DNA of 64,000 nt from Pinctada imbricata (GCA_033119305.1 VSWD01000008.1:62068347-62132346), one strand, 5' to 3'; positions 6,719 to 52,105 are shown, numbered from the stretch's first letter. Translations and numbers: made by a program. The notes: generated by a model not told the origin, from the sequence alone.

Positions 6719-6719
6719 G

Positions 6720-11711: not shown

Positions 11712-12005
11712 CTGAAATATAAGATAGATACATTATGGTGTGTCCCGGTTACTTTACGTATCACAGCAGTATATTCCTACTCCTTCCGGAAACCTTACTT
11801 TGGAAAGGTACGAGGAACTCTTATTAGCCGATACAGGAATGACTTCAGCTTTTCATGTCGCCCCGAATTAATAAAGTAACATTCGTTTTGTTAATAAATA
11901 TTCCTCTCCAAACATATTTTCCGCCTTCACTGCAGTGACTACTTATAAAGTAGTATTAAATACCTAAAGTCTCTAAGGGAAAGTCAACTTCTGAAAGAAA
12001 CTGAC

Positions 12006-19648: not shown

Positions 19649-19762
19649 TTACTTCCTGTAACCAGTCGGCCTGTTATATTCCACTTGCTTTTGTAAATCA
19701 TCTATACGAAGGTCCTTTAAGTGTAGCAAATGTTCCAATCTGTTCACTTTGGCTTCTAAAAT
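19649..19762 (-). CDS. SPEF1: SPEF1-like gene B, downstream alternative terminal exon: ILEAKVNRLEHLLHLKDLRIDDLQKQVEYNRPTGYRK*. It follows an atttcag acceptor
   Basis: 38 codons. Matches the human SPEF1 C-terminal coiled coil (..QMKVRRLEHLLQLKNVRIEDLSRRLQ.., from memory). Tandem paralogue of 19891-20004. Confidence 0.55.
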   Translation of the reverse strand: MLEAKVNRLEHLLHLKDLRIDDLQKQVEYNRPTGYRK

Positions 19763-19890: not shown

Positions 19891-20004
19891 CTAACGTCGA
19901 AATCCCGTTGGTCGCATTTCTTCGACACGATTTTGTAGATCGTCTATCCTCATGTCTTTAAGATGAATAAGGTGCTCCAGTCGGTTACATTTTGCTTGTA
20001 AAAT
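19891..20004 (-). CDS. SPEF1: SPEF1-like gene B, upstream alternative terminal exon: ILQAKCNRLEHLIHLKDMRIDDLQNRVEEMRPTGFRR*. It follows a ctttcag acceptor
   Basis: 38 codons. In phase with exon 22011-21885 (..DETIK|ILQAKC..). Confidence 0.6.
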   Translation of the reverse strand: MLQAKCNRLEHLIHLKDMRIDDLQNRVEEMRPTGFRR

Positions 20005-21884: not shown

Positions 21885-22011
21885 TTTGATTGTTTCATCT
21901 TTTGCAAGGTTTTCCTGAGCTTTTTCCTCGAACACTAATCTGGGTACGACATCGGCCTCCATGGGATCTCTGATGGTTCTACCTTTGGTAGGCTCCTGCC
22001 ATAACTCCGGT
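21885..22011 (-). CDS. SPEF1: SPEF1-like gene B internal exon: (R)PELWQEPTKGRTIRDPMEADVVPRLVFEEKAQENLAKDETIK. Acceptor ttttattacttcag; donor AAA|GTATGT
   Basis: Both splice sites are consensus. Aligns to the human SPEF1 pre-coiled-coil segment DPSFVLQIAEKEQELLASQETVQ (memory). Phase 0 exit matches the terminal exons. Confidence 0.6.
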
Positions 22012-28936: not shown

Positions 28937-29338
28937 CCGACAGAAGGATTTATACAGGCAACGTTTTTGTGTTAACAACTAAATGACGTAGAGAGTATCA
29001 GGAAAATGCATGTTCACAACGTCTTTTACAATTTTTTGGATTATCTATAAAAGTAAAAAGAACAAAACTTCCAAAATGGCCTCTAATTAATCTAATACAC
29101 AAATTAAGTTATACATACCCTTTCGTGTGACCTTTAGTACCCTTTACTTGACCTTTGCTTCTGCCAGGAGTCCCTGAAAGACATACTCAATTAATGATGT
29201 TTACAGATAATTGACGTCGAACTTCCTGTTACACCAAAACAAGTTTAATTTTCAGATTTTTTTCTAAGTATCTAAGTTGTATGGTGGCATTCTTCTGCCT
29301 CCTACATGCGAGATATTTTCTGTAGATTATGTCGTCAT

Positions 29339-34270: not shown

Positions 34271-34479
34271 CGACATATTGGTCAGCCTCAGGTTTATCAC
34301 TTTCTGGCCTACCATGTTTCTTTTTTACAGGTGGTGGTTGTCGCTGCCGTTCCCATTCCGCTCTATTCAGTTTGATTCTCAGATATATAAGAAATTTTTC
34401 TATGAGACCAGGTTTACAGGCGACAATACCTTCGATCAAATCATTGTCAACCTCAAAATTGAATCTTTTGAAAACTTTC
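34271..34479 (-). CDS. SPEF1: SPEF1-like gene B exon 3 (end of the CH/DUF1042 domain): (R)KVFKRFNFEVDNDLIEGIVACKPGLIEKFLIYLRIKLNRAEWERQRQPPPVKKKHGRPESDKPEADQYV. Acceptor ttctgtatttcag; best donor G|GTAAGA at 34270 (alternative donors at 34329 and 34313)
   Basis: Aligns with human SPEF1 KVLKRLNFSVPDDVMRKIAQCAPGVVELVLIPLRQRLEERQRRRK (memory). Phase matches exon 2 (AG+G=R). Confidence 0.65.
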
Positions 34480-34605
34480 CTGAAATACAGAAAATTTTCT
34501 CAGTTAACTAAGCGATATTGCTCACAGAAAGGTAATGAACTAAATACTAGTATTGTGAAAGAAGAAAACACTATGGTGTGGTTGTGAAACACTGCATAAT
34601 AAAGC

Positions 34606-36100
34606 CAGTGTTTGTGAAACACAAATGCCCCCGGTGGCATCTTTGTTAGTATGAACACTAATTTCTGTTAAGTACATGTATGTGAGGTCACTGGGTTAAA
34701 AGGTCAAAGGTCAAGGTCACGAGGTCAAAAATTTTGGTATCAATATAAAGGTCTTGTCACAAGGAATACACATGTGAAATATGAAAGCCCTATCACTTCC
34801 CATTCAAAAGTTATGCCCAATGTTAAAGTTTTTGAAAAGTAGGTCAAAGTCCAAGGTCAAGGTCACAAGGTCAAAAATTTCGGTTTCCATGGAAAGGTCT
34901 TGTCACAAGGAATACACATGTGAAATATCAAAGCCCTATCACTTTCCATTCAAAAGTTATGGTCAAGGTTAAAGTTTTTAATAAGTAGGTCAAAGGTCAA
35001 GGTCAAGGTCACGAGGTCAAAAATTTTGGTATCAATGGAAAGGACTTGTCACAAGGAATACACATGTGAAATATGAAAGCCCTATCACTTCCCATCCAAA
35101 AGTTATGTCCAATGTTAAAGTTTTTGAAAAGTAGGTCAAAGGTCAAGGTCAAGGTCACGAAGTGAAAAATTTTGGTATCAATGGAAAGGTCTTGTCACAA
35201 GGAATACACATGTGAAATATGAAAGCCCTATCACTTCCCATCCAAAAGTTATGCCCAATGTTAAAGTTTTTGAAAAGTAGGTCAAAGGTCAAGGTCAAGG
35301 TCACGAGGTCAAAAATTTTGGTATCAATGGAAAGGTCTTGTCACAAGGAATACACATGTGAAATATGAAAGCCCTATCACTTCCCATTCAAAAGTTATGT
35401 CCAATGTTAAAGTTTTTGAAAAAGTAGGTCAAAGGTCAAGGTCACGAGGTCAAAAATTTTGGTATCAATGGAAAGGTCTTGTCACAAGGAATACACATGT
35501 GAAATATGAAAGCCCTATCACTTCCCATTCAAAAGTTATGCCCAATGTTAAAGTTTCTGAAAAGTAGGTCAAAGGTCAAGGTCAAGGTCACGAGGTCAAA
35601 AATTTTGGTATCAATGGAAAGGTCTTGTCACAAGGAATACACATGTGAAATATGAAAGCCCTATCATTTCCCATTCAAAAGTTATGCCCAATGTTAAAGT
35701 TTTTGAAAAGTAGGTCAAAGGTCAAGGTCAAGGTCACGAGGTCAAAAATTTTGAAATCAATGGAAAGGTCTTATCACAAGGAATACACATGTGAAATATG
35801 AAAGCCCTATCACTTCCCATCCAAAAAATATGCCCAATGTTAAAGTTTTTGAAAAGTAGGTCAAAGGTCAAGGTCAAGGTCACGAGGTCAAAAATTTTGG
35901 TATCAATGGAAAGGTCTTGTCACAAGGAATACCCATGTGAAATATGAAAGCCCTATCACTTCCCATTCAAAAGTTATGTCCAATGTTAAAGTTTTTCGGA
36001 CAAACAGACAGACAAACAGACAAACAGATAAACAGACAAACAGACGGACAGGCCAAAAACTATATGCCCCCGAATCTTTGATTCCGGGGGCATAAAAAAA
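34606..36100 (+). mobile_element. Family F3 element: ~10 x 142-bp units, a long (ACAGAC)n and the 3' hairpin atgcccccgaatctttgattccgggggcat
   Basis: Termini and units read directly. A partial duplicate of the 5' terminus (gttgtgaaacac) lies 25 bp upstream. Confidence 0.7.
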
Positions 36101-36944
36101 CCCCTTGTTTGTGTACAGATTTAAAAGACATATTGCAAGTAAGCATCAGACATACAGATTGACTGACAAACTGACAAACTTACTTATTGACTGACCAGAG
36201 TGTTCACACTAGGCAATTACAGGGTAGTGGTTAAGTAGTACATTTAGGCCCACATCATGATGATGTGGACCTTCAGCATTGTTCAAATGATTGATGTTTG
36301 TAATTTTAGTCTTTGCTCATTGGGCAGATCAAAGTACCAATAGTACTTATATGCTCTGGAGGTCAGGATTCTACCTATTCCTCCCATTCCCAGGTTCAGA
36401 TTCCAACTTTGTGAAACCCAGATGCACAGCTACAAGTCACACCCTAGCATACTGTATGATACCATAAAACGTTTTGTTACCCAACCTTTAAGGAAGAAAA
36501 GCCTACACAACATTTACGAACTAAACCCATATTTTCCCCAACTCAGGGGCCATACCTACACTTTGATACCCTGGTGCACCACTCACTAGAGTCACATCCT
36601 ACCACATCATCTTAAGTTTTGAAATATATCTGTTCAGAATTTTGAGTTGGTCAATTCTGTAACTGTGACTTTTGACCTAACCTAATATTGATAAGTAATA
36701 AATCCTAAACCACTAAAGACAGTAATTCTGGGTTGCAAAGCACTATTAAGTATTAGTTGATCAACTTGATGTTTACTTTATTAATTGAAGGTATTGTTAA
36801 AAGTAATCTATACATGTGAAATAGCAAGGCCCCACCCTTTATAGTTTAAGACACATTGTCAATTTCATTGGGGGGGGGGGGGTTAAAACTCAAGGTCAAG
36901 GTCAAAGTCCCAAATAAAGCCTAGGCAATGCATAGCATAGCATC

Positions 36945-38645
36945 CCCTCGCACTGCCCCCTCTAGGCTGTATAAAAAGATTTTGACCTTTTCCAATCTGT
37001 GACCTTGACCTTTGGCCTTTTAAAAATCAATAGGGTTCTTCCTCTTTTTAAAAGCTATCATTGTATGAAGTTTGGTTAAGGTCCAATCAAAACTGCGTCC
37101 TCTAGGCTGTATACAAGGATTTTGATCTTTTCCAATCTGTGACCTTGACCTTTGACCTAAAAAAGTCAATAGGGTACTTCCTCTTATAAACTATCAAGAG
37201 TATGAAGTTTGGTTAAGACCCAATCAAACCTGTACCCTCTAGGCTGTATACAGGGATTTTGACCTTTTCCAACCTGTGACCTTTGATCTTTGACCTAAAA
37301 AAATCAATAGGGTACTTCCTCTTATAAACTATCAAGTGTATGAAGTTTGGTTAAGACCCAATCAAACCTGCACCCTCTAGGCTGTATACAGAGATTTTGA
37401 CCTTTTCCAACCTGTGACCTTTGATCTTTGAGCTTGAAAATCAATAAGTTTCTTCCTCTTATAAACTATCAAGAGTATGAAGTTTGGTTAAGACCCAATC
37501 AAACCTGCACCCTCTAGGCTGTATACAGGGATTTTGACCTTTTCCAACCTGTGACCTTTGATCTTTGACCTAAAAAAATCAATAGGGTACTTCCTCTTAT
37601 AAACTATCAAGAGTATGAAGTTTGGTTAAGACCCAATCAAACCTGCACCCTCTAGGCTGTATACAGAGATTTTGACCTTTTCCAACCTGTGACCTTTGAT
37701 CTTTGAGCTTGAAATCAATAAGTTTCTTCCTCTTATCATAAACTATCAGTGTATGAAGTTTGGTTAAGGCCCAATCAAAACTGCACCCTCTAGACTGTAT
37801 CCAAGGATTTTGACCTTTTCCAATCTGTGACCATGACCTTTGACCTAAAAAAATCAATAGGGTACTTCCTCTTATAAACTATCAAGAGTATGAAGTTTGG
37901 TTAAGACCCAATCAAACCTGCACCCTCTAGGCTGTATACAGGGATTTTGACCTTTTCCAACCTGTGACCTTTGATCTTTGACCTAAAAAAATCAATAGGG
38001 TACTTCCTCTTATAAACTATCAAGAGTATGAAGTTTGGTTAAGACCCAATCAAACCTGCACCCTCTAGGCTGTATACAGGGATTTTGACCTTTTCCAACC
38101 TGTGACCTTTGATCTTTGACCTAAAAAAATCAATAGGGTACTTCCTCTTATAGAACTATCAAGTGTATGAAGTTTGGTTAAGACCCAATCAAACCTGCAC
38201 CCTCTAGGCTGTATACAGGGATTTTGACCTTTTCCAACATGTGACCTTTGATCTTTGACCTTGAAAATCAATAGGGTTCTTCCTCTTGTCATAAGCTATT
38301 AGTGTATGAAGTTTGGTTAAGGCCCAATCAAAACTGCACCCTCTAGACTGTATCCAAGGATTTTGACCTTTTCCAATCTGTGACCTTGACCTTTGACCTA
38401 AAAAAGTCAATAGGGTACTTCCTCTTATAAACTATCAAGAGTATGAAGTTTGGTTAAGACCCAATCAAACCTGCACCCTCTAGGCTGTATACAGGGATTT
38501 TGACCTTTTCCAATCTGTGACCTTGACCTTTGACCTACGACCTTGAAAATCAGTAGGGTTCTTCTTCTTGTCATAAGCTATCAGTGTATGAATTTTGGTT
38601 AAGATCCAATCAAAACTGCACCCTCTAGGCTGTATACAAGTATTT
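36945..38645 (-). repeat. Family F4 array: a ~120-bp unit, ~14 copies (ctctaggctgtatacagggattttgaccttttccaacctgtgacctttgatctttgacc...). It is the reverse-strand counterpart of the AGGTCA satellites, ending next to an imperfect palindrome atccccctgcaactatgttgcaaggggata
   Basis: Units contain tgaccttgacctttgacc, the reverse complement of ggtcaaaggtcaaggtca. Confidence 0.75.
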
Positions 38646-38699
38646 TGTGACACACACACTCACTTGCACACGAACGAGGGCGTTACTATATCCCCCTGC

Positions 38700-39100
38700 A
38701 ACTATGTTGCAAGGGGATAATGAAAGGCCATGTCACACAGAATCTTCATGTTTTTGGTTCAAGAGATATAGTCAAGCTTAAAGCTGTTGAAAAGTATGCC
38801 ATACTTCAAGGTCAAGACCACTAGGTCAAAGCCAAGGTTATAAGGAAACTACAAGTGAAATATGTAAGCTCTACCCATTACGATTCAAGAGAAATAGCCA
38901 AAGTTAATGTTTCTGAGGTTAAACTTCAAGGTCAAGGTCATTATGTAAAAAATAAAGGTATCAAATGAAAGGTCTTGTCAAAAGGAATTTACATGTGAAA
39001 TATGAAAGCCCTACCCCCTACTATTCAAGAGATTTTCCAAAGGTTGATTTTTTTTTTAAAGTTTGTCAAACTTCAAGTTAAAGGTAACAATTCAAAGGTC
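38700..39100 (+). repeat. Degenerate AGGTCA-type satellite copies
   Basis: Diverged ggtcaaggtca...catgtgaaatatgaaagccct units. Confidence 0.4.
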
Positions 39101-42100
39101 AAGTCAAAAATTTATTTATAACATCATAATCCATAGTTCATGTAAATTAACTTGTCAATACTACTCATAGTTTTCTCCCTATTGCCTTACACACAAGGAT
39201 CAAGTTCAAAATCAAAAGTTTTTGCTGTGTTGAATTCGCCTCATAATGGTCTTTCACCATGTAAAAGTTACAAGTAGCTACTCCAAATAGTTTTCTGCCA
39301 ACAAACTTAAATGCAAAAGCTTAACCAAAATGTTGACAGAGACAGAAAAAACAATGGACTGACGAATGGGCTGATGGACTGGACAAACTTTGCCATTTCC
39401 TTTAACTCATTTGGTCATAAGCAACAAGTGTGAAGTCCCTTTTATATTATATTCCAGTAAGCATGAGGAACAAACACATTCCTATATGATGTTGCTATTA
39501 ATAAGTATATCATTAGGGTATAAAAGTTCTTTTTGCTTATGAATGTAGAAGGAATTTTTTTAAACAGACAGGCAGTCAGGACAAAAGCAGTATGCTCCAT
39601 AATAAGATTATATAAATAAGGATGTCTTTCTCTACTAGGCCATAACTTTATATACATATATATACATTTACTACAATCAAAACATAAATTTCTACACTAA
39701 AGGATACGATATGTATACCTGAAATATCTAGGTCTAGCAACTATCCTATGCTTAATAAATAAAGCAGTTGTGGTTGCAAACATTTTTTCAGTGAAACAAT
39801 GTGAAGAAAAATATAGATAAGGCATATATATTTAGGTAATACAGTAGAAGATAAACAAGTATAACTGAACTTTTAAAAAAAGAAGGTTAATCAAAATTAG
39901 ACGGTAGAAATGAATATGCTGTGTACCAAATACATTTTCACTATTTGGCCAACACTATGATGTTTATATCAAGAGTGAAAAAAGAGGGTGAGTCAATGAT
40001 ATGTGTAGAGGTAAAGGATGTTAACTATTAATCAACCGTACAAAACTCTTGGTTTTCATGCCTCTGAGATGACAAATGATTACATGAACACAATCTTTAT
40101 AGTGATATTTAATCTATCTTCGATGATCTTATAATGTTCTCCTTTACAATCTTATCTTGAATTTAAATAGAAGGATAATATGTTTTTTATAAGAAAAATT
40201 CAAAGTCCCTTACGAAAAAGGGCGCTTTTTTATGCTTGATCTATTATAAATACAGATTTGGTTGCGGACTAAAACAATTTTCAAATTCATAAAAGAGTTT
40301 TCTCAAAATATTTCAAAATTTTTACCTTTCATGGTAGATTTTGTACCTTATCATAGTCGCTCCCTTTGATATCAGATATGACAACGGATGCTGGAAAGAC
40401 ACTTGGTCACTGCACTATGATAATGGCTCACTTGAGCCTTTAGCTCTAGTGAACTGACAAAAGGGGAATGCGCTCTAAGATAATAATTACCTGTTAAGTG
40501 TTCTCCAGTTATTTGTCTTTTTGTCCGCAGCACTACATGGAGAAAAATTATGCATTTCCACTGCTTGGGGGAAAACATTTTTTACAATTTCAGCGACAGG
40601 AACTGCAAAATGAAGTAATTTATTCAGCCATTGCCCTATTCAGATACTAACTCAGACCTAAAACAATCTAACTGCTGTGTCAAAGCTTTAGTCACAAAAA
40701 AAAATTATATTTAACATCAAATCTGTTCTGAATTCTTGACGATGTTTTTTATTTTGTGTTTTCAGAATACATTTGTGTCTTTTCAATGAAAAACATTGCA
40801 GAAAGAAGTTAACTCAGAAACGATATGTTGAATCAGGTCTGTACATATCATAGCCTTAGTACATGTATAGAAAAACTGACAGATAAAGGTCTATGTAATC
40901 CTTTACATATGTTCATACGCAGCACTTTTAACTAGCAATGTGTTACTTTAAAAAGTACTTGACGGCTATTATGCAGACAGGGGAATTTAGGGAAAGCATG
41001 CTCAATATTGGGATTGACATATTCCCAAACATCCCAAGGGGAAATGAACAAGAATTCTCTGAGGAGACTGAAGCTCTTCTGGTTGTTTGGATTAAAGTCA
41101 CCATAGTGAATGAAGTACTTATACCCTTTATATAGGGCTCTAGCTCCTCAATTGTGTTTTGCTGACATCTAAAGCTAACCTTTTAGTTAGAAATGGAAAA
41201 AAGAAATTCAGCATGGATTTTGTTGAACATCATGAAATAAGGCGTAACAGTCAATTTTAGGTAAAACTGCAGAAAAAAACTCGATTAATTCCTAAATATG
41301 ACTTAAATAACACAATATGCATTACAAAATATGTATGATATTAACCCAAATGGTCTAGCTTGTAACAATCAGGAAAGATGAGAAAAATATCAAAGCTTTG
41401 TCTCTTGCACATCTCTTTTGTGTCTTGAAAGAAATTTCAAGTAAAATTTTGAATTTTTGAAAGGTCAAACATCAAGACCATTAGGTTAAAAACCTTTGAT
41501 TGATGGACAAACAGACAAAAGTCACCAATCTTCATGTATACACAGGTAATAAGGTAATAAACTCTAGGCTTGAGTATTGTCAGGTACCCTACGATACCAT
41601 ATGGTATCACAATATGAGGTTGCGATATGATAGTAGCACGATACTTCCAACTTTATATTTCTTTCATTATTATTTTTTAGGCTAATGTAATTTGTTTGGG
41701 ATCTTTGTTCAGATAATATTGATTGTCTGATAAAGATGAAAGAATGATCTTAAATTTGGTGAAAGAAAAAAAAAAACATTGAATTTGATGCCTATTTCCA
41801 GGTTTTTACCTTTCAAATCTCAAATAATTTAAGGAAGGTGAAAAAAAGTCATTAAATGTTGTTTTGAAGTAGATATTAACCTTTCCAATTTGAATTAACC
41901 ATTGTTGCAATATTGTGATACCTGGGTCACAATACAATACGCGTATCGTACAACCTCGTGATCAATACTATCAATATATTGTTACAAGCCTAATAAACAC
42001 CAATGACCGTTAGTGACACTCAGGAGTAAAGAGGTAGTTTGTGAATTGTAACAATGAGAACGAAAATCAAATTAATGCAAAGTATATCATTAGAACGATA

Positions 42101-43317
42101 TAAATGAATTGAAAGAATTAAGATTCAGAAAAAACATAGATGTGCAACCTTTTTTGTAGATTTACTTTTTTTATTTATTTTTATCAAAATGATATCCTTA
42201 GTAGTTATTTGATTTTTAGAAAGAATTTCCTGAAATTTGGATGGGACTTGCACCATATATACTAGCTGCAGATCATATTATATATGATATTACTACAATG
42301 TATTTATATACATGTATTATTTATAAATCTTCCATATCATGCATTAAAATGAATAATTTCTCAAGAATTAAAAGGTTCATTAGCTGAATAAAAGCAGCTG
42401 GACAGTTGACTTTTATAGATTTTATTTTCATTTTTCAAACTTCCCTATACCCGGAGGTTAAAGTATGATTAAACGACTCACAGAAAGTGATTGCTTGTTA
42501 CAGAAAAATATTTTAAATGTTTGCAACCAACAAAACCACAATAAAACAACACAAACTGAATCAACCTCATTGTTTTGATCAGCTAATTAAACTTTGATTA
42601 GCTAATTAAACTATCTAGATCATGTAACATTATGACAATGAAATATCTATCATGCAACAAACACATCCACAAATTAATGGTGACAAAAATGTCATAAAAA
42701 GACAAAACTACGTACAATAACAACAGCAAATATCTTTGTTAGCTATCATATTAACTTTTTGTAGCTGTAAAAATGATGCGCAAATATGCAGAGCTTATGA
42801 AGTTTTTATGCATTTCAGTCATCCTTAATGTAGATATAAATTATAATCATAGTGAAATGTATCGAATCATTGGCATTATCGAGGTATAGTAATGAATGGT
42901 AATGTCCTTAAAGTTAACATAGCTAGATGAGTGGAATGAATTTAATGTCAGATTGTGTATGTATAGTAAATTCTCGTTAGCTTTACTCAAGATTAATAGG
43001 CAGTTGAAACCTGGCCAGAAATTAAATTCTTTTGTTGACAAGGTCACTTTGTTACCACAATAAAAACAAGTGATTTCATAAGCTCTGCATTTTAACACAC
43101 TTCAAGAGCTACAATGTCATCCTTAAATATTTACATATTTGCTGCAACCCCATTACATCTCAAGCAAGCTCTATGTTAATAAAACTTCCTTTTATAATTC
43201 TTTTTATTTTGCTGTTTTCTGAACAAGTTTTTCATTTCTTGAAATAGTTTTATGGACAATGAACCTATGTCACTAGATTCAAATTTTACTATTTGAAAAT
43301 TACTGCAGTTCAAACAT

Positions 43318-44190
43318 ACAAAAATAGCAATTCAAGGAATGCTTGTGTCACCTGCGAAGTGGCAATTTCTTCTTTTTTTTTTTTTAAAGTAGGTCAAATA
43401 TCTATTTCAAGGTCATTAGGTAAAAAATTATGGCATGTGTAGAAAGGTCTTGTCACAAAGCATACACATGTGAAATATCAAAGCCTTATCATTTACCAAT
43501 CTAAAGACATAGCTAATCTTAGTTTTTCAAGAAGTAAGCCAAATATCTAGGTCAAGGTCACTAGGTCAAACATTATGGTAAGTGTAGAAAGACCTTGTTA
43601 CAAGGCATACACATGTGAAATATCAAGGCCTTATCCCTTACCATTCAAAAGATAAAACCAATCTTAGCTTTTTTTAAAAGTAGGTCAAATATCTAGGTCA
43701 AGGTCACTAAGTCCAAAAAAAAATTGTAGGTGTAGAAAGGTCTTGTCACAAGGAATACACATGTGAAATATCAAAGCCCTATTCCTTACCATTCAAAAGA
43801 TAAAACCAATCTTAGCTTTTTTGAAAAGTAGGTCAAATATCTAGGTCAAGGTCACTAATTCCAAAAAAAAAAAAAAAATGGTAGGTGTAGAAAGGTCTTG
43901 TCACAAGGAATACACATGTGAAATATCAAAGCCCTATCACTTACCAATTAAAAGATATACAAGTAGTCAATCTTAGCTTTTTTGAAAAGTAGGTCAAGGT
44001 CACTAGGTCAAAAATGTTGGTTTGTGTAGAAATGTCTTGTCACAAGGAATAAGCATGTGAAATATCAAAGCCCTATCACTTACCAATCTAAAGTTATGGG
44101 GTGTGACACCCAAAGTGTGACAACAGACGGACAACGGACAATGAGATCCCTAAGTGTTGCTATGATTTGCAGGCTACACAAAAAGACAGC
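43318..44190 (+). mobile_element. Family F2 element (~6 units; poly-A slippage inside the units)
   Basis: 5' aaaaatagcaattcaaggaatgcttgtgtcacctgcgaagtggc; 3' aaagttatggggtgtgacacccaaagtgtgacaacagacggacaa...gcaggctacacaaaaa. Confidence 0.65.
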
Positions 44191-44260
44191 TTGTAGAGGC
44201 ATGAATACAATGTCTGTAACTGATTACAGCATGAGTAAACATTTATAAGGATGGCTGTAC

Positions 44261-44372
44261 CTGTTTAATTCATGCCAATTTTCCTTCTTTTGCTTCATGT
44301 TGTTTGCAGGAGGGTAGTTATGCATATGTATCAAATGTGGGAAGCGATCCTTAATCATTTCTGCCACCATTA
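44261..44372 (-). CDS. SPEF1: SPEF1-like gene B exon 2 (CH/DUF1042 domain): (V)MVAEMIKDRFPHLIHMHNYPPANNMKQKKENWHELN(R). Acceptor ttgtttttgatgtag; donor AG|GTACAG
   Basis: Aligns with human SPEF1 VLVAEVIKFYFPKMVEMHNYVPANSLQQKLSNWGHLNR (memory). Enters in phase 1 and exits in phase 2, consistent with exons 1 and 3. Confidence 0.7.
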
Positions 44373-46584
44373 CTACATCAAAAACAAGCAACATGCAGCA
44401 AATCGTTAAAAAGCAAAACCAAGGGACAAGATGCATGCATGTCAGTGTTAAACAAACCTGGGAATCAATATACAGTTCATTAAAATGTACATAAACATTT
44501 ATATTATTACCGAACAAATTACAGATACATTTTAATATTGGGAATGTTAGGGAGGATGAACAGATCAAGAGGTCTGGTCCCTGAACCTCCTTTGGGGTTT
44601 CTGATTATTTTTTCTTTAAATGTCAGAGATACAAATTTACATCATGGTCAAATAAGAAATATGCCTTACAGAAGCAAAATGCTACGTTGCAGTAGCCAGT
44701 AGATTCACGACTTTGACCTATGACCCAATTCTCAGCCCAGGGTTTCTTGGGATTGCACTATACCTCTGTCAATGCTACTTTATAGAAATACAGCAGACAA
44801 TTCTAAGCTTTTTACATATATGTAATTAAAAATTATCATATGAAACTATACTCATATACCCTGTACAATCAAAGTTAAATCAAACTTTTGTCTAGCAAAC
44901 AACTGCTCATTTTTTTTAAGGCAATCAACAGCAATTCTCTGTAAGAACCAAAGAATTTCAAGACATATTGGCACGGCATGTCATGGATTTTTGAAATTTT
45001 TGGTTTGGAAGTTCAATATGAAGCACTAGTATGTAAATCAACCCCAGTTTTTTCAAAAAGGTTGCCGTTGCCATGGTAACCATGTCTGAAGTTTCAAAAA
45101 TAGGGAAAATCTATAGGACGAGGCATATTTGTAGGCTTCGTTACCATGGAAACAGGTACTTTTTTAATCTGAAATTGCTTTGATTATTTTCTTTTAATCC
45201 TTATTATTATGCATATTTGTAAAGTTTTTTACATTCATCTCGGATGCCTTTTGTATACAAGATGAAAAATTGGGCCTAAAAAGGGTATCAAAAGGCTCTG
45301 TTTTGGGCACTTAAATACCCTTTTTTGCATGTTTTTACTGTTTTACAAGGTTGAAAATTTCATAAAAGCACCAATTTTTGAAGTCCAAATTCTAATTATC
45401 TAATTAGTATCATCTCTGAACTTTACATTAATATGAAAAATTAATTGGGCTAATTTGTCCTTTTATATGCAAAGCAGCATCAAATTTAGTTGCTATGGCA
45501 ACAACCGGCTGAAAGGTTTCCATACGATAGATTTAAACACAACCTCTATCAAACTATCTACACATGATATTGGAACAGAAGTTCATGTATACATCTATCA
45601 GAGGGGTTTTAATATAAAAATGACCTTGAAATTATTTCAAGGTCACCCGCTGAATTTCCAAGGTCGTTAAACTTTAAGTGACCAGATTTGACGAAAAATT
45701 CTGATTTTTCATAAAATTAAGGTGCCAATATTTTAGAAACCTTGAAATATTGAACTTAACAGTTATTTGCCATAAAATGATAAACGTATCACTTATTTCT
45801 TAGAACTATTGATAATGTTTCTTCACATCTTCGAATATCTAAATTCTTGGTGAGTATTTTGATAAAAAAGGGACGAAATCTGTATTTTCTTGTTTTTTTG
45901 ACGAAAAAAAATTTTCCCATTAAATTTCTCCAGTTCAATGAATTCTAAGATTTTTCTTTCTTATATTCATTTGCTTTCATAAAATATATGACCTATGAAA
46001 ATATTCAAATAAAAGATAATTAAAATCGGTAACAAAAACTTTAAAAAATCAATATTTTATGCAAAATTTGAGTCTCAAAGTATAAATGACCTTGAATATC
46101 AAGCCAATGACCTTGAACATTTTAATTGTTCTTATGTAAAAGATTTAAGTCATATCTATACATGCATACATTTTGACAATCTTATGTAATTCTAAAGAGG
46201 AATAAAATCAATTTCAAAGATAATATGAAACAAGCAAAAAGGTCTAATGTTGCCATGGCAACGGTCTTTGGCGACAGAATTTAGGTAAAACTCTTAAAAT
46301 ACCCACTCCAATTTTTTGTTCATTTTATTTGTCAATAAACATCTATTTCCTTTGATGAAAATCATTGGTCTCCTATTGGTGCCTTATGTGATATATAAGA
46401 TTGAAAATGGTCAAAAACACACTAAATTGGCCCTTATTTTCACCTCTTTTTTTCGCTTCATTTTGACTTATTTTGACTTAATACAATAAGCTTCCTGTAA
46501 TAAATATCACATTACTAAGTGTACTAAGTAAGAGTGGAAGTAAGGAAGAATAGATTATAAAATGTTATGATCGCTGAGCGATAT

Positions 46585-47600
46585 AGTCCCCTACCGGCGG
46601 CATATATTTATGTCCTGCAACTCTGGCTATGAATTACTCTTCAATTAAACATATACATGTATGAGTTTAAATTAAACTTACTGTCTGTGCAGCTCAGTTC
46701 TGAGGTTTTATCTGCTTTATCGATTCGAAAAAGAGGTCAAGTGTGACGAAAGTTGAACTTGTTCTGTAACTATCCAAGACTAAGCTGAGTATCAAATTTC
46801 ACCTGAATATCTCTGTTTGTTGCAGAAAAAAGTCTGGAAAACTGACAAAAACTGAATTTTCCAAGTCATAAAGGGGCATAACTCCTCGAAAAATAGGTCA
46901 AACGTGACATAAGTCGAACTTGCTCTGTAACTATCCTAGACCAAGCTGTGTATCAAATTTCATCTGAATATCTTCATCCGTTGCAGAAAAAAAGTACAGA
47001 AAACTGACAAAAACTTAATTTTCCAAGTTATAGAGGGGCATAACTCCTTGTAAAATAGATCAAGCCTGACAAAATTCAAACTTGCTCTGTAAGTATCCAA
47101 GACCAAGCTGTGTATCAAATTTCATCTGAATATCTCCATTCGTTGCAGGAAAAAGTCCGGAAAACAGACAAAAAGTGAATTTTCCAAGTCATCAAGGGGC
47201 ATAACTCCTCGAAAAATGGGTCAAACGTGATGAAGGTTAAACTTGCTCTGTAACTATCCAAGACAAAGCTGTGTATCAAATTTCATCTGAATATTTCCAT
47301 TCGTTGCAAAAAAAAGTCCGGAAAACTGACAAAAACTGGATTTTCCAAGTCATCAAGGGGCATAACTCCTCGAAAAATGGGTCAAGCGTGACGAAAGTCG
47401 AACTTGCTCTGTAACTATCCAAGACCAAGCTGTGTATCAAATTTCATCTGAATATCTCTATCCATTGCAGAAAAAAGTCCGGAAAACTGATATTCGGACA
47501 GACGGACAGACGGAGGGACAGACGGACGGACAGACAGACAGACGGACAGACAGACCGAGAGGAAACTAAGAGTCCCCTTCGGCGTTGCCGGTAGGGGACT
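46585..47600 (+). mobile_element. Family F6 element: 14-bp terminal inverted repeats AGTCCCCTACCGGC, an internal ~160-bp satellite x6 (46720-47490), (GACAGACGGACA)n, and the 3' hairpin agtccccttcggcgttgccggtaggggact
   Basis: 5' tagtcccctaccggcggcat (46587) against the reverse complement of 3' ...ccggtaggggacta (47586). Satellite units read directly. Confidence 0.6.
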
Positions 47601-49860
47601 AATAAAGATGAACAAGCTGTTACAGTGGTATCCATGGCAATGAAGTCTCCGGAGATGGCTTATTTCATAGTCCCAACAGTGCTATAAATAGAATGACCTC
47701 GTTACCATGGCAACAAGAGGTCACATTGGCCAAAAAGTGTCATTTTCATGGTCAGTACTTAATATATACCCATTATACCGAAATTCATCAAAATCCATGT
47801 CATGCCGTGCCGATCGATTTTGGTCCTTACAGAGAATTGCTATTAAATATTTGATAATACTGTAAACTGTTTTTTATTTGCGGCGTCTTATGTCCACGAA
47901 CACCAGTGAGGTGACTGCTTCGCGGTGTTTTATTTTCGCGACATCGTATGTACCTTACTTACTACATGTATATACATTTTAGGATATTTTCGCACCGTTT
48001 TATTGTCAGGAATTCAAGGATCTCGTGAATATTGCGAAAATTAAACGCGAATAAAAGACGGTTTATAGTATCACCAAATTTCGACACCATGGTATCATGT
48101 ATGCAGCTGCTGGTGTTACGTGTATAGTACCATTTCAGAATGACTCAACAAAATCCATGTGATATTCTGTTTTGCAGTAGATACGAAATGTTCTAAAATG
48201 TCATAGGATTAACTAAATTAAAAAAATTAAAGCCTAACCCATTCGTTTACATTTATGGTTTCTGTCACATTAGCTAAACAGACCCACTGTCATAAGAAAT
48301 TCTGACATGCATCACGATTAACAATTGTTGTCAAAGTGAACAATATGACTGTAATCTGCATTGAATTTTATCTCTTCTTGGAATACCTAACCTTTATCCT
48401 ATAGGAGTGTTCCTAAAAAAGGAGGGATTTAGTTACTGGTACTTCGTAGGAGTTTGACAACTGATTTCATTGGTTAATTGCAATGTGACGTCACAAACTG
48501 CCCCCTATTCAGATACACAACAAGTCTTAGAAGGGGCAGTTTGTAACATTGCAGTGCAATTTAACTACAAATTATCCTATGGTTACTGTATACATCATGT
48601 ACATTCATTCAAATGACAGCAGTCTGAAATTAAAATGGGAATATCCTGTAAATATTTTCATTTTTCTGTTTAGTGGATAGGGTGCATGAGTTGATGAAAA
48701 TTTTCAGTTTCATGTACGTTTTGAACAACCTACCGTAAGTTCAACCTACCAAGACATTTAAATTAATAGAAAAATTTAAAGTTAAGACAGCAGAATACAT
48801 CTTCAAAATATGGTGCTCTAGATTTATTGAATATACTTGCTTTTGGTATTCTAGAAGAGGGCTGTTCCATTACATGCATCTGCCATTGACTATTGCCTGT
48901 CACTAGATTGAGAAATTTGAGGGGCTGCGATAGTCAATGGCAACATTATGATTTAAAAATACAGTCCTATTACAGAATCTCAAAACTTGTAAAAAAGGAT
49001 TAATGTCCTCATGGCTCATATTGGAAACTGTAAAATCATGATTTTGTCCAAAGTTAATATAATTACATATACATGTATGTGGCTAGCCTTGTCAATTCTC
49101 GTTTAGTTGCAACTTTTTCTGGCATACATTTTCTATAGATAAAAATAACATACCAGATGGGGACATTTAACATGGAGCCTTAAGAAAACTTTGCAACATT
49201 AGAGGAAAAATTAACATTGAAAATGCTTCATCTTAACATATTTTTCTTATTTAACTTGATTGCGTGCTTCTTATAGTCCTATCACTAGAATGATCAGTTA
49301 TGACAAGACAAGATCTATTGGTCAGTATACTGGTGTTAGAACTGTTTCCAGACAGTAATAGTTTCTGGACAATCGTCCCTTTCAAGTATTTTGAAGAAAT
49401 TTTCTTCCAAAATTTTATGACAATTTTGTACTTCATTTTTAATTTAAATGGAGAATTCAAATTCAAATCATGAATATCATAACAAAATTTTGCATCTAAG
49501 TAACTTTACCACACAACCTTTTAACCCCTCTCTGTCCTGTTTGATATTGCACATCAGGAGAAATTGCAGAGAACCATCCATTTCCACTGAACCCTGATTT
49601 TTTTAAAACTATTATTTAAAGGTGCCTTTCAATTTGGGAAAAATCAGTGACATAATCAAGAAAATTAGGAATAGTTTAAACAGTTTATTATCAGTCCTTT
49701 GATCATGGTCACGTAAAATTATTTCAGGTTGAATCAAACTGTACTCTCAATTTTTGGGAATTTAGGCACATGTAACTTTTTTTGGAAAAATAGTAGTTAA
49801 TTCAGCATTGAGAAAGGGCCGAAATTCGGCCCCAAATTACAAGTATAATAAAATAAAAAA

Positions 49861-49914
49861 TGTGTTTGTGAAAAACAAATGCCCCCGTCGGCATCTATGT
49901 CAAATTGTATAATG

Positions 49915-49946
<32 letters not shown>

Positions 49947-50409
49947 ATATTTTGGTATCAATGGAAAGGTCTTGTCACAATGAATACACATGTGAAATAT
50001 CAAAGCCCTATCCCTTACCATTCAAAAGTTATGGCCAAGGTTAAAGTTTTTCAAAAGTAGGTCAAACTCTAAGGTCAAGGTAACAAATTTTGGTATCCAT
50101 GGAAAAATCTTGTCACAAGGAATACACATGTGAAATATCAAAGCCCTATCCCTTACCATTCAAAAGCTATAGCCTGCAAGGTTAAAGTTTTTCAAAAGTA
50201 GGTCAAACTCTAAGGTCAAGGTAACAAGGTTAAAAATTTTGGTATCCATGGAAAGATCTTGTCACAAGGAATAAACATGTGAAATATCAAAGCCCTATCT
50301 CTTAAATTTGTACCATTCAAAAGCTATGGCCAAGGTTAAAGTTTTTGCAGACAAACAGACAGGACAAATACTATATGTCCCCGAATCTTTGATTACCGGG
50401 GCATAAAAA
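49861..50409 (+). mobile_element. Family F3 element (3 units)
   Basis: 5' tgtgtttgtgaaaaacaaatgcccccgtcggcatc; 3' (ACAGAC)n...atatgtccccgaatctttgattaccggggcat. Confidence 0.65.
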
Positions 50410-50663
50410 TCACTGTTGAATGACAAAGGAGCTATCACAGAAAAACCTTTAAAATTGTCTGGAAACTGTTCCGACAACAGTAAATTGAATTCAAAGTTGC
50501 TCAAGTCAAGGTGGACAAATTTCATGTTTTGTGCAGTTCCCATAATTTGGGCACGACATTTTATTATGCTGTCGTTGACTGAGGTCCCTTACCCGAGGCT
50601 TGTCAGCAATTCATAAGTTAATTCCGGGAGTAGGCCCTGATCGAACTGCCCGCTTTGCGGGCT

Positions 50664-51070
50664 GCTGATGATTGTGACATAAATGCCATTGCATAGGTAG
50701 AAATTGGGTCATTCCCCGCTTCCTTAAATTACATATTTTTACTTCCATCTGTGACATTAATTGTTTAAAATCCCTCTTAAAACGGAGACATTACACAGTT
50801 TTCAATCCAAAGCCATCTACATTGTTGTTGTGACACACTGGAAAGACCGATGCTTGCGATTAGAGCGGAGACCATGTCACATCACAACAACCGATTTAGG
50901 TGGAATTTGAGTGATAGATATACAAGGTGATTGAAAACTATCATCTCACCATTTTTAAGAGAGACTTTAAGCCATGAATGTCGTAGATAGAAGTAAAAAT
51001 ATGTCAGAAAGCTGGGAATGACCTAATAATACCCATGCAATGCAATATGGTATTCATGTCACAATCATGA
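50664..51070. mobile_element. MITE-like element with ~100-bp imperfect terminal inverted repeats (ATGATTGTGACAT...GGTCATTCCC...). It has an internal palindrome and no ORF
   Basis: Left arm 50664-50780 against the reverse complement of 50945-51070. TSD not resolved. Confidence 0.35.
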
Positions 51071-51157
51071 CCACAATACGGGTAGTTCTATCGGCAGGCA
51101 GGTCCATCTCCCTAAATAAACTTATGAATTGCCGACAAAGGATTTTGGTAAGGGTAT

Positions 51158-51634
51158 CAGTCAATGTAGTCCGACTTGCAGACCTACGACGGTGTTATCT
51201 GTCTTTTCGTCTTCGGTCTGACTGCTATGCATAGGCAAAACTTGAGAATTTCGGTGCGAAATTAATTTCGGCAAGTCGTCCTTTTTTTTTTGGACAAATT
51301 CCAGTCTCTTCAACCAAAAAAGAAGTCACCCAGTCCTCCTGTCCCTAAAATGTCCCCTCCAAGCCTAGTTTCGCCTCTTCCTCTCTTCCGATTTTCCTCT
51401 GATCGACTACATTTTGTCATACGCACAGAGGTGAAACCAGGCCTAGAGGGAATTTTTTAGGGGCTGGAGGACTGGGTGACTTATTTTTTGGTTGAAGAGA
51501 CTGGAATTTGTCAAAAAAAGGACGACTTGCCGAAATTAATTTCGCACCGAAATTCTCAAGTTTTGCCTATAGATAGCAGTCAGACCGAAGACGAAAAAAC
51601 AGATAACACCGTCGTAGGTCTGCAAGTCGGACTA
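51158..51634. mobile_element. Foldback-type MITE. Its ~185-bp arms are ~97% identical (TAGTCCGACTTGCAGACCTACGACGG...). The loop is ~110 bp and the perfect 9-bp TSD is CAGTCAATG
   Basis: TSD at 51149-51157 and 51635-51643. The arms were read and compared base by base. Confidence 0.6.
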
Positions 51635-51963
51635 CAGTCAATGGCACATAATACATGTAAAACTGCCCTTGCTTGAATCGCAAGAAGGATTTCAGTTTCC
51701 AAAATGAGCTGCAGACTGTGGTGGATTTTTTATATGCAACATACATCATACTTTATGTGATAATTGACCCTTCCGATTGCGGAGAAAAAATGCAAAATTT
51801 TGTGTCGTCACAATACTTTTACCTCGGACAAACAAGCTTCGAACCTCGGTCAAACATCAAAAGTGCATTGTGACGTCATGGAATTTCTCAAATTTTTCCC
51901 GCGTTCGGAAGGGTCAATTGATTCTGCATGGAATGAAAATAAAAGTCTCAAAGTATCATATAC

Positions 51964-52105
51964 CCCCATCTGCAAAGTCTCTCGATAGATTTTTTTTAGG
52001 TCTTGTCAGTGGGAAAGTATCAATCCAACTGTATAACTCCTCCAGTTCTGCATCGTCATACTGATCATCGTTTTCTGAAACTGTAAGTTTGTCCAATGAT
52101 GCCAT
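51964..52105 (-). CDS. SPEF1: SPEF1-like gene B exon 1 (start codon at 52105): MASLDKLTVSENDDQYDDAELEELYSWIDTFPLTRPKKNLSRDFADG(G). Donor G|GTATAT
   Basis: Matches the human SPEF1 N-terminus MASSVDEEALHQLYLWVDNIPLSRPKRNLSRDFSDG (memory). Phase-1 exit is completed to Val by exon 2. Confidence 0.7.

What the first reader, a model, noticed from the sequence alone, without database searches (positions are those of the whole stretch)
34271..52105. SPEF1/CLAMP-like ciliary gene (CH/DUF1042 domain + C-terminal coiled coil) spanning >=32 kb on the minus strand, with satellite-packed introns
Three minus-strand segments splice in phase: 52105-51964, 44372-44261 and 34479-34271. Together they encode MASLDKLTVSENDDQYDDAELEELYSWIDTFPLTRPKKNLSRDFADG / VMVAEMIKDRFPHLIHMHNYPPANNMKQKKENWHELN / RKVFKRFNFEVDNDLIEGIVACKPGLIEKFLIYLRIKLNRAEWERQRQ. 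This reproduces residue by residue the N-terminal CH domain of human SPEF1 as I recall it (..LSRPKRNLSRDFSDGVLVAEVIKFYFPKMVEMHNYVPAN..KVLKRLNFSVPDDVMRKIAQCAPGVVELVLIPLRQRLEERQ). Consensus acceptors and donors are present at every junction. Further downstream the same strand has an exon at 22011-21885 and coiled-coil terminal exons near 20004-19649. The introns are each 7-12 kb and consist largely of the F2-F6 satellite elements. At least one exon is still missing between 34271 and 22011: exon 3 exits in phase 1 and exon 22011-21885 enters in phase 2.
Basis: partly seen in the sequence, partly recalled or inferred. Interest (0 to 1): 0.6.

Follow-up and report, generated by a model that had tools for sequence, protein, structure and literature searches.

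The report
Pearl-oyster SPEF1 gene with swappable exons
This is the ordinary, already annotated pearl-oyster gene for the cilia and sperm-tail microtubule protein SPEF1; the one notable detail is that two of its exons come in duplicate copies that appear to be used as alternatives.

Summary
The three minus-strand segments join in frame with GT..AG borders. Their product is a CH_2 domain (Pfam E=5.6e-31) whose closest solved structure is human SPEF1 (E=2.4e-38). The window matches Pinctada imbricata protein KAK3094411.1 (252 aa) at 100% on five exons, so the gene is already in GenBank.

- The annotated model uses a different exon 2 (40602-40491). The two are tandem duplicates that must be mutually exclusive, because including both or neither breaks the frame.
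- The missing exon is 29173-29119 (55 nt).
- The two "terminal exons" are alternatives, not consecutive. 6a (20004-19891) and 6b (19762-19649) each have their own CAG acceptor and stop codon. Their differences concentrate at third codon positions (14/5/25).
- Repeats fill 12-59% of each intron, not most of it.

The exon-2 swap is seen across bivalves: in RefSeq isoforms of Mytilus, Ostrea, Dreissena and others, in two 112-nt copies at the Saccostrea locus, and in one mRNA contig. It is not Pinctada-specific. It replaces 4 of the 9 residues that contact tubulin in Tetrahymena SPEF1A. There is no Pinctada transcript evidence for 2a or 6b. Verdict: an ordinary known gene with a modestly interesting splicing architecture.

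The parts
51964..52105 (-). Coding exon 1 (starts at the ATG; 142 nt; exits in phase 1). It encodes the N-terminus and the first part of the CH domain, including R35, K38 and R42, which correspond to the beta-tubulin contacts R25, K28 and R32 of Tetrahymena SPEF1A.
   Evidence: 100% identical to P0001 residues 1-47; contact mapping.
44261..44372 (-). It encodes VMVAEMIKDRFPHLIHMHNYPPANNMKQKKENWHELN. It is not used in the deposited gene model. Acceptor ...TTTTTGATGTAG, donor GTACAG.
   Evidence: Its nucleotide best match is the upstream exon-2 copy of Saccostrea (E=4e-8), which has the same length and the same GTACAG donor.
40491..40602 (-). Exon 2b (112 nt), the downstream copy and the one used in GenBank protein KAK3094411.1. 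It encodes VPVAEIVKNVFPQAVEMHNFSPCSAADKKTNNWRTLN. Acceptor ...TTTTGCAG, donor GTAATT.
   Evidence: (100% identical to P0001 residues 48-85).
34271..34479 (-). Exon 3 (209 nt). It encodes the rest of the CH domain (K86 and R90 correspond to the alpha-tubulin contacts R76 and K80) and the start of the linker.
   Evidence: best profile match, 111.5 bits.
29119..29173 (-). It encodes (G)TPGRSKGQVKGTKGHTK(G), entering in phase 1 and leaving in phase 2.
   Evidence: (100% identical to P0001 residues 155-173).
21885..22011 (-). Exon 5 (127 nt). It encodes the linker and the start of the C-terminal helix (...VVPRLVFEEKAQENLAKDETIK) and exits in phase 0.
19891..20004 (-). Terminal coding exon 6a (111 nt plus the TAG stop). 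It encodes ILQAKCNRLEHLIHLKDMRIDDLQNRVEEMRPTGFRR and is used in the deposited model. This is the dimerisation coiled coil.
19649..19762 (-). Terminal coding exon 6b (111 nt plus the TAA stop), a tandem duplicate 242 nt downstream of 6a with its own CAG acceptor. It encodes ILEAKVNRLEHLLHLKDLRIDDLQKQVEYNRPTGYRK and is not in the deposited model.
   Evidence: 61% nucleotide and 71-73% amino-acid identity to 6a; differences by codon position 14/5/25; no AATAAA or ATTAAA between 6a and 6b.
34699..38647 (.). The largest intronic tandem arrays (146-bp unit at 34699-35996; 138-bp unit at 36952-38647), lying in the 2b-to-3 intron. Further arrays are at 24646-25075, 32428-33195, 33299-34064, 43378-44093, 46725-47490 and 49914-50346.

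Best explanation
The region is the Pinctada imbricata orthologue of SPEF1 (CLAMP), on the minus strand, with a CDS running from 52105 to 19891 (or to 19649). SPEF1 is a microtubule-binding protein of motile cilia and sperm flagella. The gene has six exon positions but eight exon bodies: 1, 2a or 2b, 3, 4, 5, and 6a or 6b.

Shown here: the exon coordinates, phases and splice sites; the family assignment; and the fact that 2a/2b are equal-length (112 nt) homologous tandem copies, so that joint inclusion or joint skipping gives immediate stop codons. Also shown: 6a/6b are homologous tandem copies, each with its own acceptor and stop, and their differences pile up at third codon positions. The same exon-2 swap occurs in isoforms of other bivalves.

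Inferred: the pre-mRNA includes exactly one exon 2. Frame incompatibility, with nonsense-mediated decay, would remove the both-or-neither products. Exon 5 is then joined to either the 6a or the 6b acceptor. No poly(A) signal lies between 6a and 6b, so the two probably share one 3' end, and 6b would be untranslated sequence when 6a is chosen. This yields up to four 252-aa proteins.

The proteins would bind the microtubule seam through the CH domain and dimerise through the C-terminal helix, as established for Tetrahymena, mouse and human SPEF1. Exon 2 carries four of the nine tubulin-contact positions of Tetrahymena SPEF1A. Exon 6 is the dimerisation helix. The alternative exons therefore most likely tune microtubule binding and partner choice for different ciliary or cytoskeletal settings.
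For: - Family: Pfam CH_2 E=5.6e-31. The best solved-structure matches are human SPEF1 CH (2ee7, E=2.4e-38) and Tetrahymena SPEF1A (9nw3, E=8.7e-28), well ahead of SPATA4 and FAP178 at about 4e-9.
- Identity: P0001 (KAK3094411.1, P. imbricata) is 100% identical on exons 1, 2b, 3, 4, 5 and 6a.
- Architecture: all four exon combinations give an open 759-nt CDS, whereas 1+2a+2b+3 and 1+3 hit stop codons at once. Only two exon-2 copies exist in the gene.
- Selection: differences by codon position are 17/11/25 for 2a versus 2b and 14/5/25 for 6a versus 6b. For 6a/6b, 19 codons differ only synonymously and 10 differ non-synonymously.
- Conservation: the Saccostrea cucullata locus has two tandem 112-nt exon-2 copies, and the upstream one shares the GTACAG donor with 2a.
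- Isoforms elsewhere: Mytilus edulis X4 and X3, and Ostrea edulis X9 and X8, are identical outside the exon-2 block and differ only there. Two exon-2 peptides per species also occur in Crassostrea, Dreissena, Mercenaria, Mya and Ruditapes.
- Transcript: a 907-nt contig from a Logan sequencing-run assembly has an uninterrupted 246-aa ORF carrying a 2a-type exon.
- Terminal exons: alternative terminal coiled-coil exons appear in Ruditapes, Mercenaria and Mya isoforms and in the upstream paralogue in this window.
- Function: the tubulin contacts H55, S62, Y68 and T72 of Tetrahymena SPEF1A (PMC11642885) align without gaps to Pinctada positions 65, 72, 78 and 82, all inside exon 2. These are H/N/E/E in 2a and H/A/N/T in 2b.
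Against: - There is no transcript evidence from Pinctada for exon 2a or 6b. None of the three unannotated isoforms is in the 15-billion-protein collection as an exact sequence, and the P0001 cluster has one member.
- Saccostrea has no second terminal exon within 10 kb, so the 6a/6b duplication is not conserved there.
- The codon-position skew for 2a/2b is only suggestive (my chi-square on the counts gives p of about 0.06).
- Both exon-2 donors (GTACAG, GTAATT) are weak. That fits regulated exons but would also fit a poorly used one.
- Orthology of the 2b copies across bivalves is not resolved with only 37 residues.
- The functional consequence for tubulin binding and dimerisation is inference from a ciliate structure and was not tested.
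- No RFX X-box was found within 1.2 kb upstream of the ATG.
Confidence: 0.85

Rival explanations
1. Exon 2a and/or exon 6b are unused relics of old tandem exon duplications. Pinctada would then make only the deposited 2b/6a protein.
For: Only the 2b/6a form is deposited, and no 2a or 6b isoform of Pinctada is in the protein collection. The 2a donor GTACAG is weak. No 6b-like copy exists in Saccostrea.
Against: Both copies keep an open frame, the right phase, an acceptor with a pyrimidine tract, and (for 6b) a stop codon at the same position as in 6a. 2a keeps every family-invariant residue of the block and is closer to human SPEF1 (21/37 identical) than 2b is (18/37). 6a and 6b share only 61% of their nucleotides, yet their differences are concentrated at third positions (14/5/25), which is not expected of a drifting relic. 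The upstream exon-2 copy is retained at the same place in Saccostrea, and 2a-type exons are found in mRNA and in RefSeq isoforms of oysters and mussels.
Confidence: 0.1
2. One reading: one constitutive exon 2 (44372-44261), with the two coiled-coil exons at 20004-19649 translated one after the other.
For: The three N-terminal exons do splice in frame and give a complete CH domain.
Against: 6a ends in TAG before 6b begins, so the two cannot be translated in series without an extra splice. The only GT at the position used by a Mya gene model (after ...DDLQNR) is a poor donor, GTCGAA. The deposited protein uses 2b rather than 2a.
Confidence: 0.03
3. 2a and 2b (and 6a and 6b) belong to two overlapping or nested SPEF1-like genes, rather than being alternatives within one transcript.
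For: SPEF1-like paralogues are clustered here. A second gene's 3' end lies at 62657-60506, and a third C-terminal-like pair lies at 12107-11643.
Against: Between 52105 and 19649 there is only one copy each of exons 1, 3, 4 and 5, so neither exon-2 copy has a private set of partner exons. In Mytilus and Ostrea the two forms are identical outside the exon-2 block.
Confidence: 0.02

Closest known systems
SPEF1 / CLAMP (sperm flagellar protein 1), human, mouse and Tetrahymena SPEF1A; Pfam CH_2 (PF06294)
   Same: The domain order is the same: an N-terminal CH_2 domain, a basic or low-complexity linker, then a C-terminal helix with the motif RLEHL(I/L)HLKD.RIDDLQ. The basic tubulin-contact residues are conserved (R35, K38, R42, H65, K86, R90). 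The best structural-sequence matches are SPEF1 entries (PMC11642885).
   Different: The bivalve gene carries a duplicated, mutually exclusive exon inside the CH domain, and Pinctada also has a duplicated terminal exon. I found no report of this for any SPEF1 in the paper library. Within the top 120 hits, the gastropod, annelid, brachiopod and bryozoan proteins each show a single exon-2 form per gene.
RefSeq 'sperm flagellar protein 1-like' isoform sets of other bivalves (Mytilus edulis X2-X5, Ostrea edulis, Crassostrea virginica, Dreissena polymorpha, Mercenaria, Mya, Ruditapes up to X46)
   Same: The same block is swapped (37 or 39 aa between ...DFxDG and RKV...), with identical sequence on either side. 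Heterodont species also have alternative terminal coiled-coil exons.
   Different: In Pinctada only one isoform is deposited. Both Pinctada terminal exons are of the canonical '...RPTG.R(R/K)' type, whereas the second terminal exon of heterodonts encodes a long His/Gln-rich tail. The linker cassette exons seen in Mytilus and Saccostrea were not found here.
Tandem-exon-duplication mutually exclusive exons in general (for example oyster alternative oxidase, PMC5589949; human catalogue in PMC8373072)
   Same: There are two adjacent homologous exons of equal length and phase, the length is not a multiple of three, and one homologous segment of a folded domain is substituted for the other.
   Different: No docking or selector RNA pairing was demonstrated: a Pinctada-Saccostrea comparison found no conserved intronic element. 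The intron between the copies is long (3.7 kb in Pinctada, 0.5 kb in Saccostrea), so steric exclusion does not apply.
SPATA4 / FAP178 and other CH_2-domain ciliary proteins
   Same: They have the same CH_2 fold family.
   Different: They are much weaker matches (E of about 4e-9 against 2.4e-38 for SPEF1). The SPEF1-type C-terminal helix is present here.

Membership tests
SPEF1/CLAMP (CH_2 family, PF06294) | N-terminal CH_2 ('CH-like domain in sperm protein', formerly DUF1042) scoring above Pfam's gathering threshold | tested here: met
   106.9 bits against a cut-off of 27, E=5.6e-31, covering profile positions 1-94 of 96. P0001, which carries exon 2b, has PF06294 precomputed.
SPEF1/CLAMP (CH_2 family, PF06294) | Closer to SPEF1 than to the other CH_2 proteins (SPATA4, FAP178/CFAP) | tested here: met
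   PDB sequence search: human SPEF1 2.4e-38 and Tetrahymena SPEF1A 8.7e-28, against SPATA4 4e-9 and FAP178 4.9e-9. Every hit that its source names by function is called sperm flagellar protein 1 (or '-like').
SPEF1/CLAMP (CH_2 family, PF06294) | C-terminal coiled-coil (dimerisation) helix | tested here: met
   Exons 5-6 align to the C-termini of SPEF1 homologues from molluscs, brachiopod, annelid, nemertean and bryozoans, many named SPEF1 by their source. Invariant columns include R223, E225-H226-L227, H229-D232, R234-Q239 and R246-G249. Coiled-coil formation itself was not computed.
SPEF1/CLAMP (CH_2 family, PF06294) | Conserved tubulin-contact residues of the seam-binding CH domain (Tetrahymena R25, K28, R32, H55, R76, K80) | tested here: met
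   The gap-free alignment (offset +10) gives R35, K38, R42, H65, K86 and R90 (residues from PMC11642885). The less conserved contacts S62, Y68 and T72 correspond to N/E/E in 2a and A/N/T in 2b.
SPEF1/CLAMP (CH_2 family, PF06294) | Binds microtubules (the central-pair seam) and localises to cilia and flagella | not testable with these tools
   This needs localisation or binding experiments.
Mutually exclusive exon pair from tandem exon duplication | Adjacent homologous exons with the same length, phase and splice-site type | tested here: met
   2a and 2b are both 112 nt, both enter in phase 1, both are GT-AG, and they share 45% amino-acid and 52% nucleotide identity.
Mutually exclusive exon pair from tandem exon duplication | Joint inclusion or joint skipping destroys the reading frame | tested here: met
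   1+2a+2b+3 and 1+3+4 both run into stop codons within a few codons of the junction.
Mutually exclusive exon pair from tandem exon duplication | Mature transcripts contain exactly one of the two | tested here: inconclusive
   Met in relatives: Mytilus and Ostrea RefSeq isoforms differ only in this block, and one intronless contig from a sequencing-run assembly carries a 2a-type exon. Not testable for Pinctada itself, because no 2a isoform is in the collection.
Mutually exclusive exon pair from tandem exon duplication | Competing RNA secondary structures (docking and selector sites) | tested here: inconclusive
   No conserved intronic sequence between Pinctada and Saccostrea around the exon-2 cluster. 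No structure search was attempted in the repeat-rich introns.

The most novel reading that the evidence does not exclude
An ancient, bivalve-wide pair of mutually exclusive exons rewrites part of the microtubule-seam-binding face of the SPEF1 CH domain (three of the four contact positions in the block differ between the copies). In Pinctada it is combined with two alternative dimerisation helices. One gene would then make up to four SPEF1 forms specialised for different microtubule arrays, for example the sperm flagellum versus gill multicilia versus cytoplasmic bundles. This would be a natural isoform series for dissecting how SPEF1 recognises the seam.
Probability: 0.3. Interest if true: 0.45.

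Novelty: already known. Interest (0 to 1): 0.27.

Why it matters
For the genome scan, this finding resolves to a conventional protein-coding gene that is already deposited, so it needs no further screening effort. The residue of interest is small but concrete. The deposited Pinctada model misses an alternative exon 2 and an alternative terminal exon. The exon-2 alternative falls on residues that a 2024 cryo-EM study identified as tubulin contacts of SPEF1 at the microtubule seam. If the two forms bind differently, bivalves offer a ready-made evolutionary experiment on seam recognition and central-pair assembly. I found no paper that describes this splicing arrangement, although it is implicit in RefSeq isoform sets.

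Tried and rejected
- Exact look-up of the three unannotated Pinctada isoforms (2a/6a, 2a/6b, 2b/6b) in the protein collection: none is present. There is therefore no transcript-level support in this species.
- Fetching genomic loci for Pinctada, Mytilus and Dreissena proteins: 'not on record' for P0001, P0002, P0013, P0015 and P0008. Only Saccostrea (L001) and one Logan contig (L002) were obtained, so the genomic order of the two Mytilus exon-2 copies could not be checked.
- Search for further exon-2 copies, or any other SPEF1 exon, inside the introns using a profile of 15 homologues against all six frames: none beyond those listed.
- Search for homologues of the Mytilus, Saccostrea and Dreissena linker cassette exons in introns 3 and 4: only chance-level matches.
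- Orthology of 2a/2b with the copies in other bivalves by pairwise identity: too few sites to resolve. Only 2a matching the Saccostrea upstream copy is supported, by position, by the donor sequence and by nucleotide best match.
- Conserved intronic elements (possible docking or selector sites) between Pinctada and Saccostrea: none.
- RFX X-box (GTNRCC N0-3 RGYAAC, at most 1 mismatch) within 1.2 kb upstream of the ATG: none.
- Poly(A) signal between 6a and 6b, or within about 950 nt after 6b: no AATAAA or ATTAAA, so separate 3' ends for 6a and 6b are not supported.
- Protein search with the third C-terminal-like exon pair (12.1-11.6 kb): no homologue.
- Literature: 'SPEF1' with 'mutually exclusive' returned nothing about splicing. 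Bivalve papers on mutually exclusive exons concern other genes.

Full report

Yes. On the minus strand, 52105-51964 translates from an ATG to MASLDK...DFADG. Concatenating 52105-51964, 44372-44261 and 34479-34271 gives an open 463-nt frame. Each exon is preceded by a pyrimidine tract plus AG and followed by GT.

**2. What is it?**

The 154-aa product matches Pfam CH_2 (PF06294, 'CH-like domain in sperm protein') at E=5.6e-31, with 106.9 bits against a cut-off of 27. Among solved structures the best matches are:
- the human SPEF1 CH domain (2ee7, E=2.4e-38);
- a human SPEF1 fusion (9ntm);
- Tetrahymena SPEF1A (9nw3, E=8.7e-28).

These are far ahead of SPATA4 and FAP178, at about 4e-9.

A search of the large protein collection returned a Pinctada imbricata protein as the top hit: P0001, KAK3094411.1, 'hypothetical protein FSP39_001445', 252 aa, on a 71-Mb contig. 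The following hits, where named by function, are bivalve 'sperm flagellar protein 1(-like)' proteins.

tblastn of P0001 against the window gives 100% identity on 52105-51965, 40603-40490, 34481-34269 and 29174-29118. It is also identical on the exonic part of 22010-21885 and on 20004-19894. The window is therefore this very locus, or a near-identical genome, and the gene is already deposited.

**3. The full gene model**

| Exon | Coordinates | Length / note |
|---|---|---|
| 1 | 52105-51964 | 142 nt |
| 2a | 44372-44261 | 112 nt |
| 2b | 40602-40491 | 112 nt |
| 3 | 34479-34271 | 209 nt |
| 5 | 22011-21885 | 127 nt |
| 6a | 20004-19891 | includes the TAG stop |
| 6b | 19762-19649 | includes the TAA stop |

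A profile built from 15 homologues and run against all six reading frames found no other SPEF1-like exon between 52105 and 19649.

**4. The duplicated exon 2**

The reason is that there are two exon-2 copies. Both are 112 nt, both enter in phase 1, both are GT-AG, and they share 45% amino-acid identity.
- Because 112 is not a multiple of three, including both copies or neither gives stop codons within a few codons of the junction. That is the classic signature of a mutually exclusive pair.
- Both copies keep every residue that is invariant in the family alignment: V48, V50, A51, E52, H65, N66, K76, N79, W80 and N84.
- 2a, the unannotated copy, is actually closer to human SPEF1 (21/37 identical) than 2b is (18/37).

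**5. The exon-2 pair is not specific to Pinctada**

- The Saccostrea cucullata locus (L001) has two tandem 112-nt copies, at 12878-12989 and 13476-13587. The upstream one has the same unusual GTACAG donor as Pinctada 2a and is its best nucleotide match (E=4e-8).
- RefSeq isoforms of Mytilus edulis (X4 versus X3) are identical in residues 1-50 and from residue 82 on, and differ only in this block. Ostrea edulis X9 versus X8 are likewise identical in residues 1-50 and from residue 83 on.
- Two exon-2 peptides per species also occur in M. galloprovincialis, M. trossulus, Crassostrea, Dreissena, Mercenaria, Mya and Ruditapes.
- A 907-nt contig from a Logan sequencing-run assembly (SRR22312594) has an uninterrupted 246-aa ORF with a 2a-type exon, so it is a spliced mRNA.
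- Gastropod, annelid, brachiopod, nemertean and bryozoan hits in the listed set each show one form per gene. This is limited by what has been annotated.
- The arrangement is thus old, shared by pteriomorph and heterodont bivalves. It is implicit in RefSeq, but I found no paper describing it.

**6. The duplicated terminal exon**

6a and 6b lie 242 nt apart. Each follows a pyrimidine tract plus CAG, each enters in phase 0, and each ends in a stop codon at the same position.
- They share only 61% of their nucleotides but 71-73% of their amino acids. Differences by codon position are 14/5/25, with 19 codons differing only synonymously and 10 non-synonymously.
- My chi-square on those counts against an even spread gives about 13.7 on 2 degrees of freedom, p of about 0.001. 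This is a hand calculation.
- That pattern indicates long-term purifying selection on both copies, which argues against 6b being dead 3'-UTR sequence.
- There is no AATAAA or ATTAAA between them, nor for about 950 nt beyond 6b. The simplest mechanism is therefore a choice between two acceptors with a shared 3' end.
- Saccostrea has no second copy within 10 kb.
- Ruditapes, Mercenaria and Mya RefSeq isoforms do carry two different terminal coiled-coil exons.
- The paralogue just upstream in this window has the same layout: 61109-60969 and 60640-60506, with codon-position differences 7/2/20 and an AATAAA at 60946 just downstream of the first copy's stop.

**7. How it most likely works**

The following is established knowledge from papers, not tested here. 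SPEF1 binds the microtubule seam of the central pair through its CH domain and stabilises microtubules. Mouse SPEF1 homodimerises through its C-terminal helix (PMC11642885). A related preprint attributes phase separation of Spef1 to its C-terminal coiled coil (abstract listed).

The Tetrahymena SPEF1A contact residues are R25, K28, R32 and S62 (to beta-tubulin) and H55, Y68, T72, R76 and K80 (to alpha-tubulin). The gap-free alignment (offset +10) places them as follows:

| Tetrahymena residue(s) | Pinctada position(s) | Exon | Residue(s) in Pinctada |
|---|---|---|---|
| R25, K28, R32 | 35, 38, 42 | 1 | R, K, R (conserved) |
| H55 | 65 | 2 | H in both 2a and 2b |
| S62 | 72 | 2 | N in 2a, A in 2b |
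| Y68 | 78 | 2 | E in 2a, N in 2b |
| T72 | 82 | 2 | E in 2a, T in 2b |
| R76, K80 | 86, 90 | 3 | K, R (conserved basic) |

Exon 2 therefore carries four of the nine contact positions, and three of these four differ between the copies. Exon 6 is the dimerisation helix. 6a and 6b differ at 10 positions, including apparent core positions (C/V, I/L, M/L).

My inference, with roughly 0.3 confidence for the functional part, is that the alternative exons tune lattice or seam binding and partner choice for different microtubule arrays.

**8. Repeats**

Tandem Repeats Finder reports 138-161-bp arrays in most introns, totalling 7.4 kb of the 32.5-kb gene span. A self-comparison of the window shows that 12-59% of each intron, and 34% of the gene span, is repeated elsewhere in the window. 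No exon is repeated in this way. The introns are repeat-rich but not 'largely' satellite, and their true lengths are 1.9-7.6 kb (9.8 kb for the 2a-to-3 splice).

**9. What remains open**

- No Pinctada transcript or protein record contains 2a or 6b.
- The genomic order of the two copies in Mytilus and the heterodonts could not be checked, because those loci could not be retrieved.
- No RNA-structure mechanism for exclusivity was found.
- No X-box was found upstream of the ATG.

**10. Verdict**

This is a correct detection of an ordinary, already annotated ciliary gene. The predicted missing exon exists. The two terminal exons are alternatives. Interest is low to modest.

Noticed in passing
window 62657-60506, minus strand: This is the 3' end of a second SPEF1-like gene immediately upstream, whose CH-domain exons must lie beyond 64000. 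It has an exon-5-like exon (62657-62525) and two tandem alternative terminal exons: 61109-60969 (46 aa plus stop, with AATAAA at 60946) and 60640-60506 (44 aa plus stop). Differences between the two terminal copies fall 7/2/20 by codon position, so both look constrained.
   Followed up: partly
window 12107-12003 and 11714-11643, minus strand: A third, divergent pair of SPEF1 C-terminal-like exons (...GDNVEAVMYKNMVQSSESKDDVIE | ALEAKVRRLDHLSLVKDLKINYMTSSTKVK*), with a GT donor and a CAG acceptor, lies 7.5 kb downstream of exon 6b. No CH-domain exons are detectable between it and 19649. A protein search found no homologue. It could be a partial-duplication relic or an unannotated far-downstream alternative 3' end, since a phase-compatible (AGC)n acceptor exists.
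   Followed up: partly
window 13063-14058, plus strand: A 331-aa ORF with reverse-transcriptase motifs (...FILFVNDY...IYADD...), probably a LINE-type retrotransposon fragment. This was judged by eye only and was not scanned against Pfam.
   Followed up: no
window 24210-24351 and 26029-26175: Two microsatellite-like arrays, (CGAAA)n and its reverse complement (GTTTC)n, lie in inverted orientation about 1.7 kb apart. They bracket a 140-bp tandem array at 24646-25075. This looks like the two ends of a composite mobile element carrying a satellite.
   Followed up: no
window 24646-25075, 32428-33195, 34699-35996, 43378-44093, 49914-50346 (and, by its GACCTTGACC motif, probably the opposite orientation at 33299-34064): The 138-158-bp intronic tandem arrays share a core (GGTCAAGGTCA... 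CTTGTCACAAGGAATACACATGTGAAATATGAAAGCCCTATCACTTACC), so they belong to one dispersed satellite or mobile-element family present in several introns. From memory this resembles the satellite-carrying non-autonomous elements described in bivalves, but I did not check that.
   Followed up: no
window 10182-10712, plus strand: A 176-aa ATG-initiated ORF with a coiled-coil-like N-terminal half and an acidic tail (EDEEEDGELDEEEEDD). Its identity is unknown.
   Followed up: no
L001 (Saccostrea cucullata) 1-7416 minus strand versus 10001-19137 plus strand: In Saccostrea the two SPEF1-like paralogues are head to head on opposite strands. In Pinctada the neighbouring paralogue is on the same strand. The paralogue pair is therefore shared, but its arrangement is not.
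   Followed up: no
related proteins P0078 versus P0058 (Dreissena) and P0081 versus P0075 (Mercenaria): Heterodont RefSeq isoforms also swap a second homologous block, the exon-5-equivalent '...VPRI.LEE.EQE.LAKDE.IK', as well as many linker cassettes (up to isoform X46 in Ruditapes). No second exon-5 copy exists inside the Pinctada gene.
   Followed up: partly
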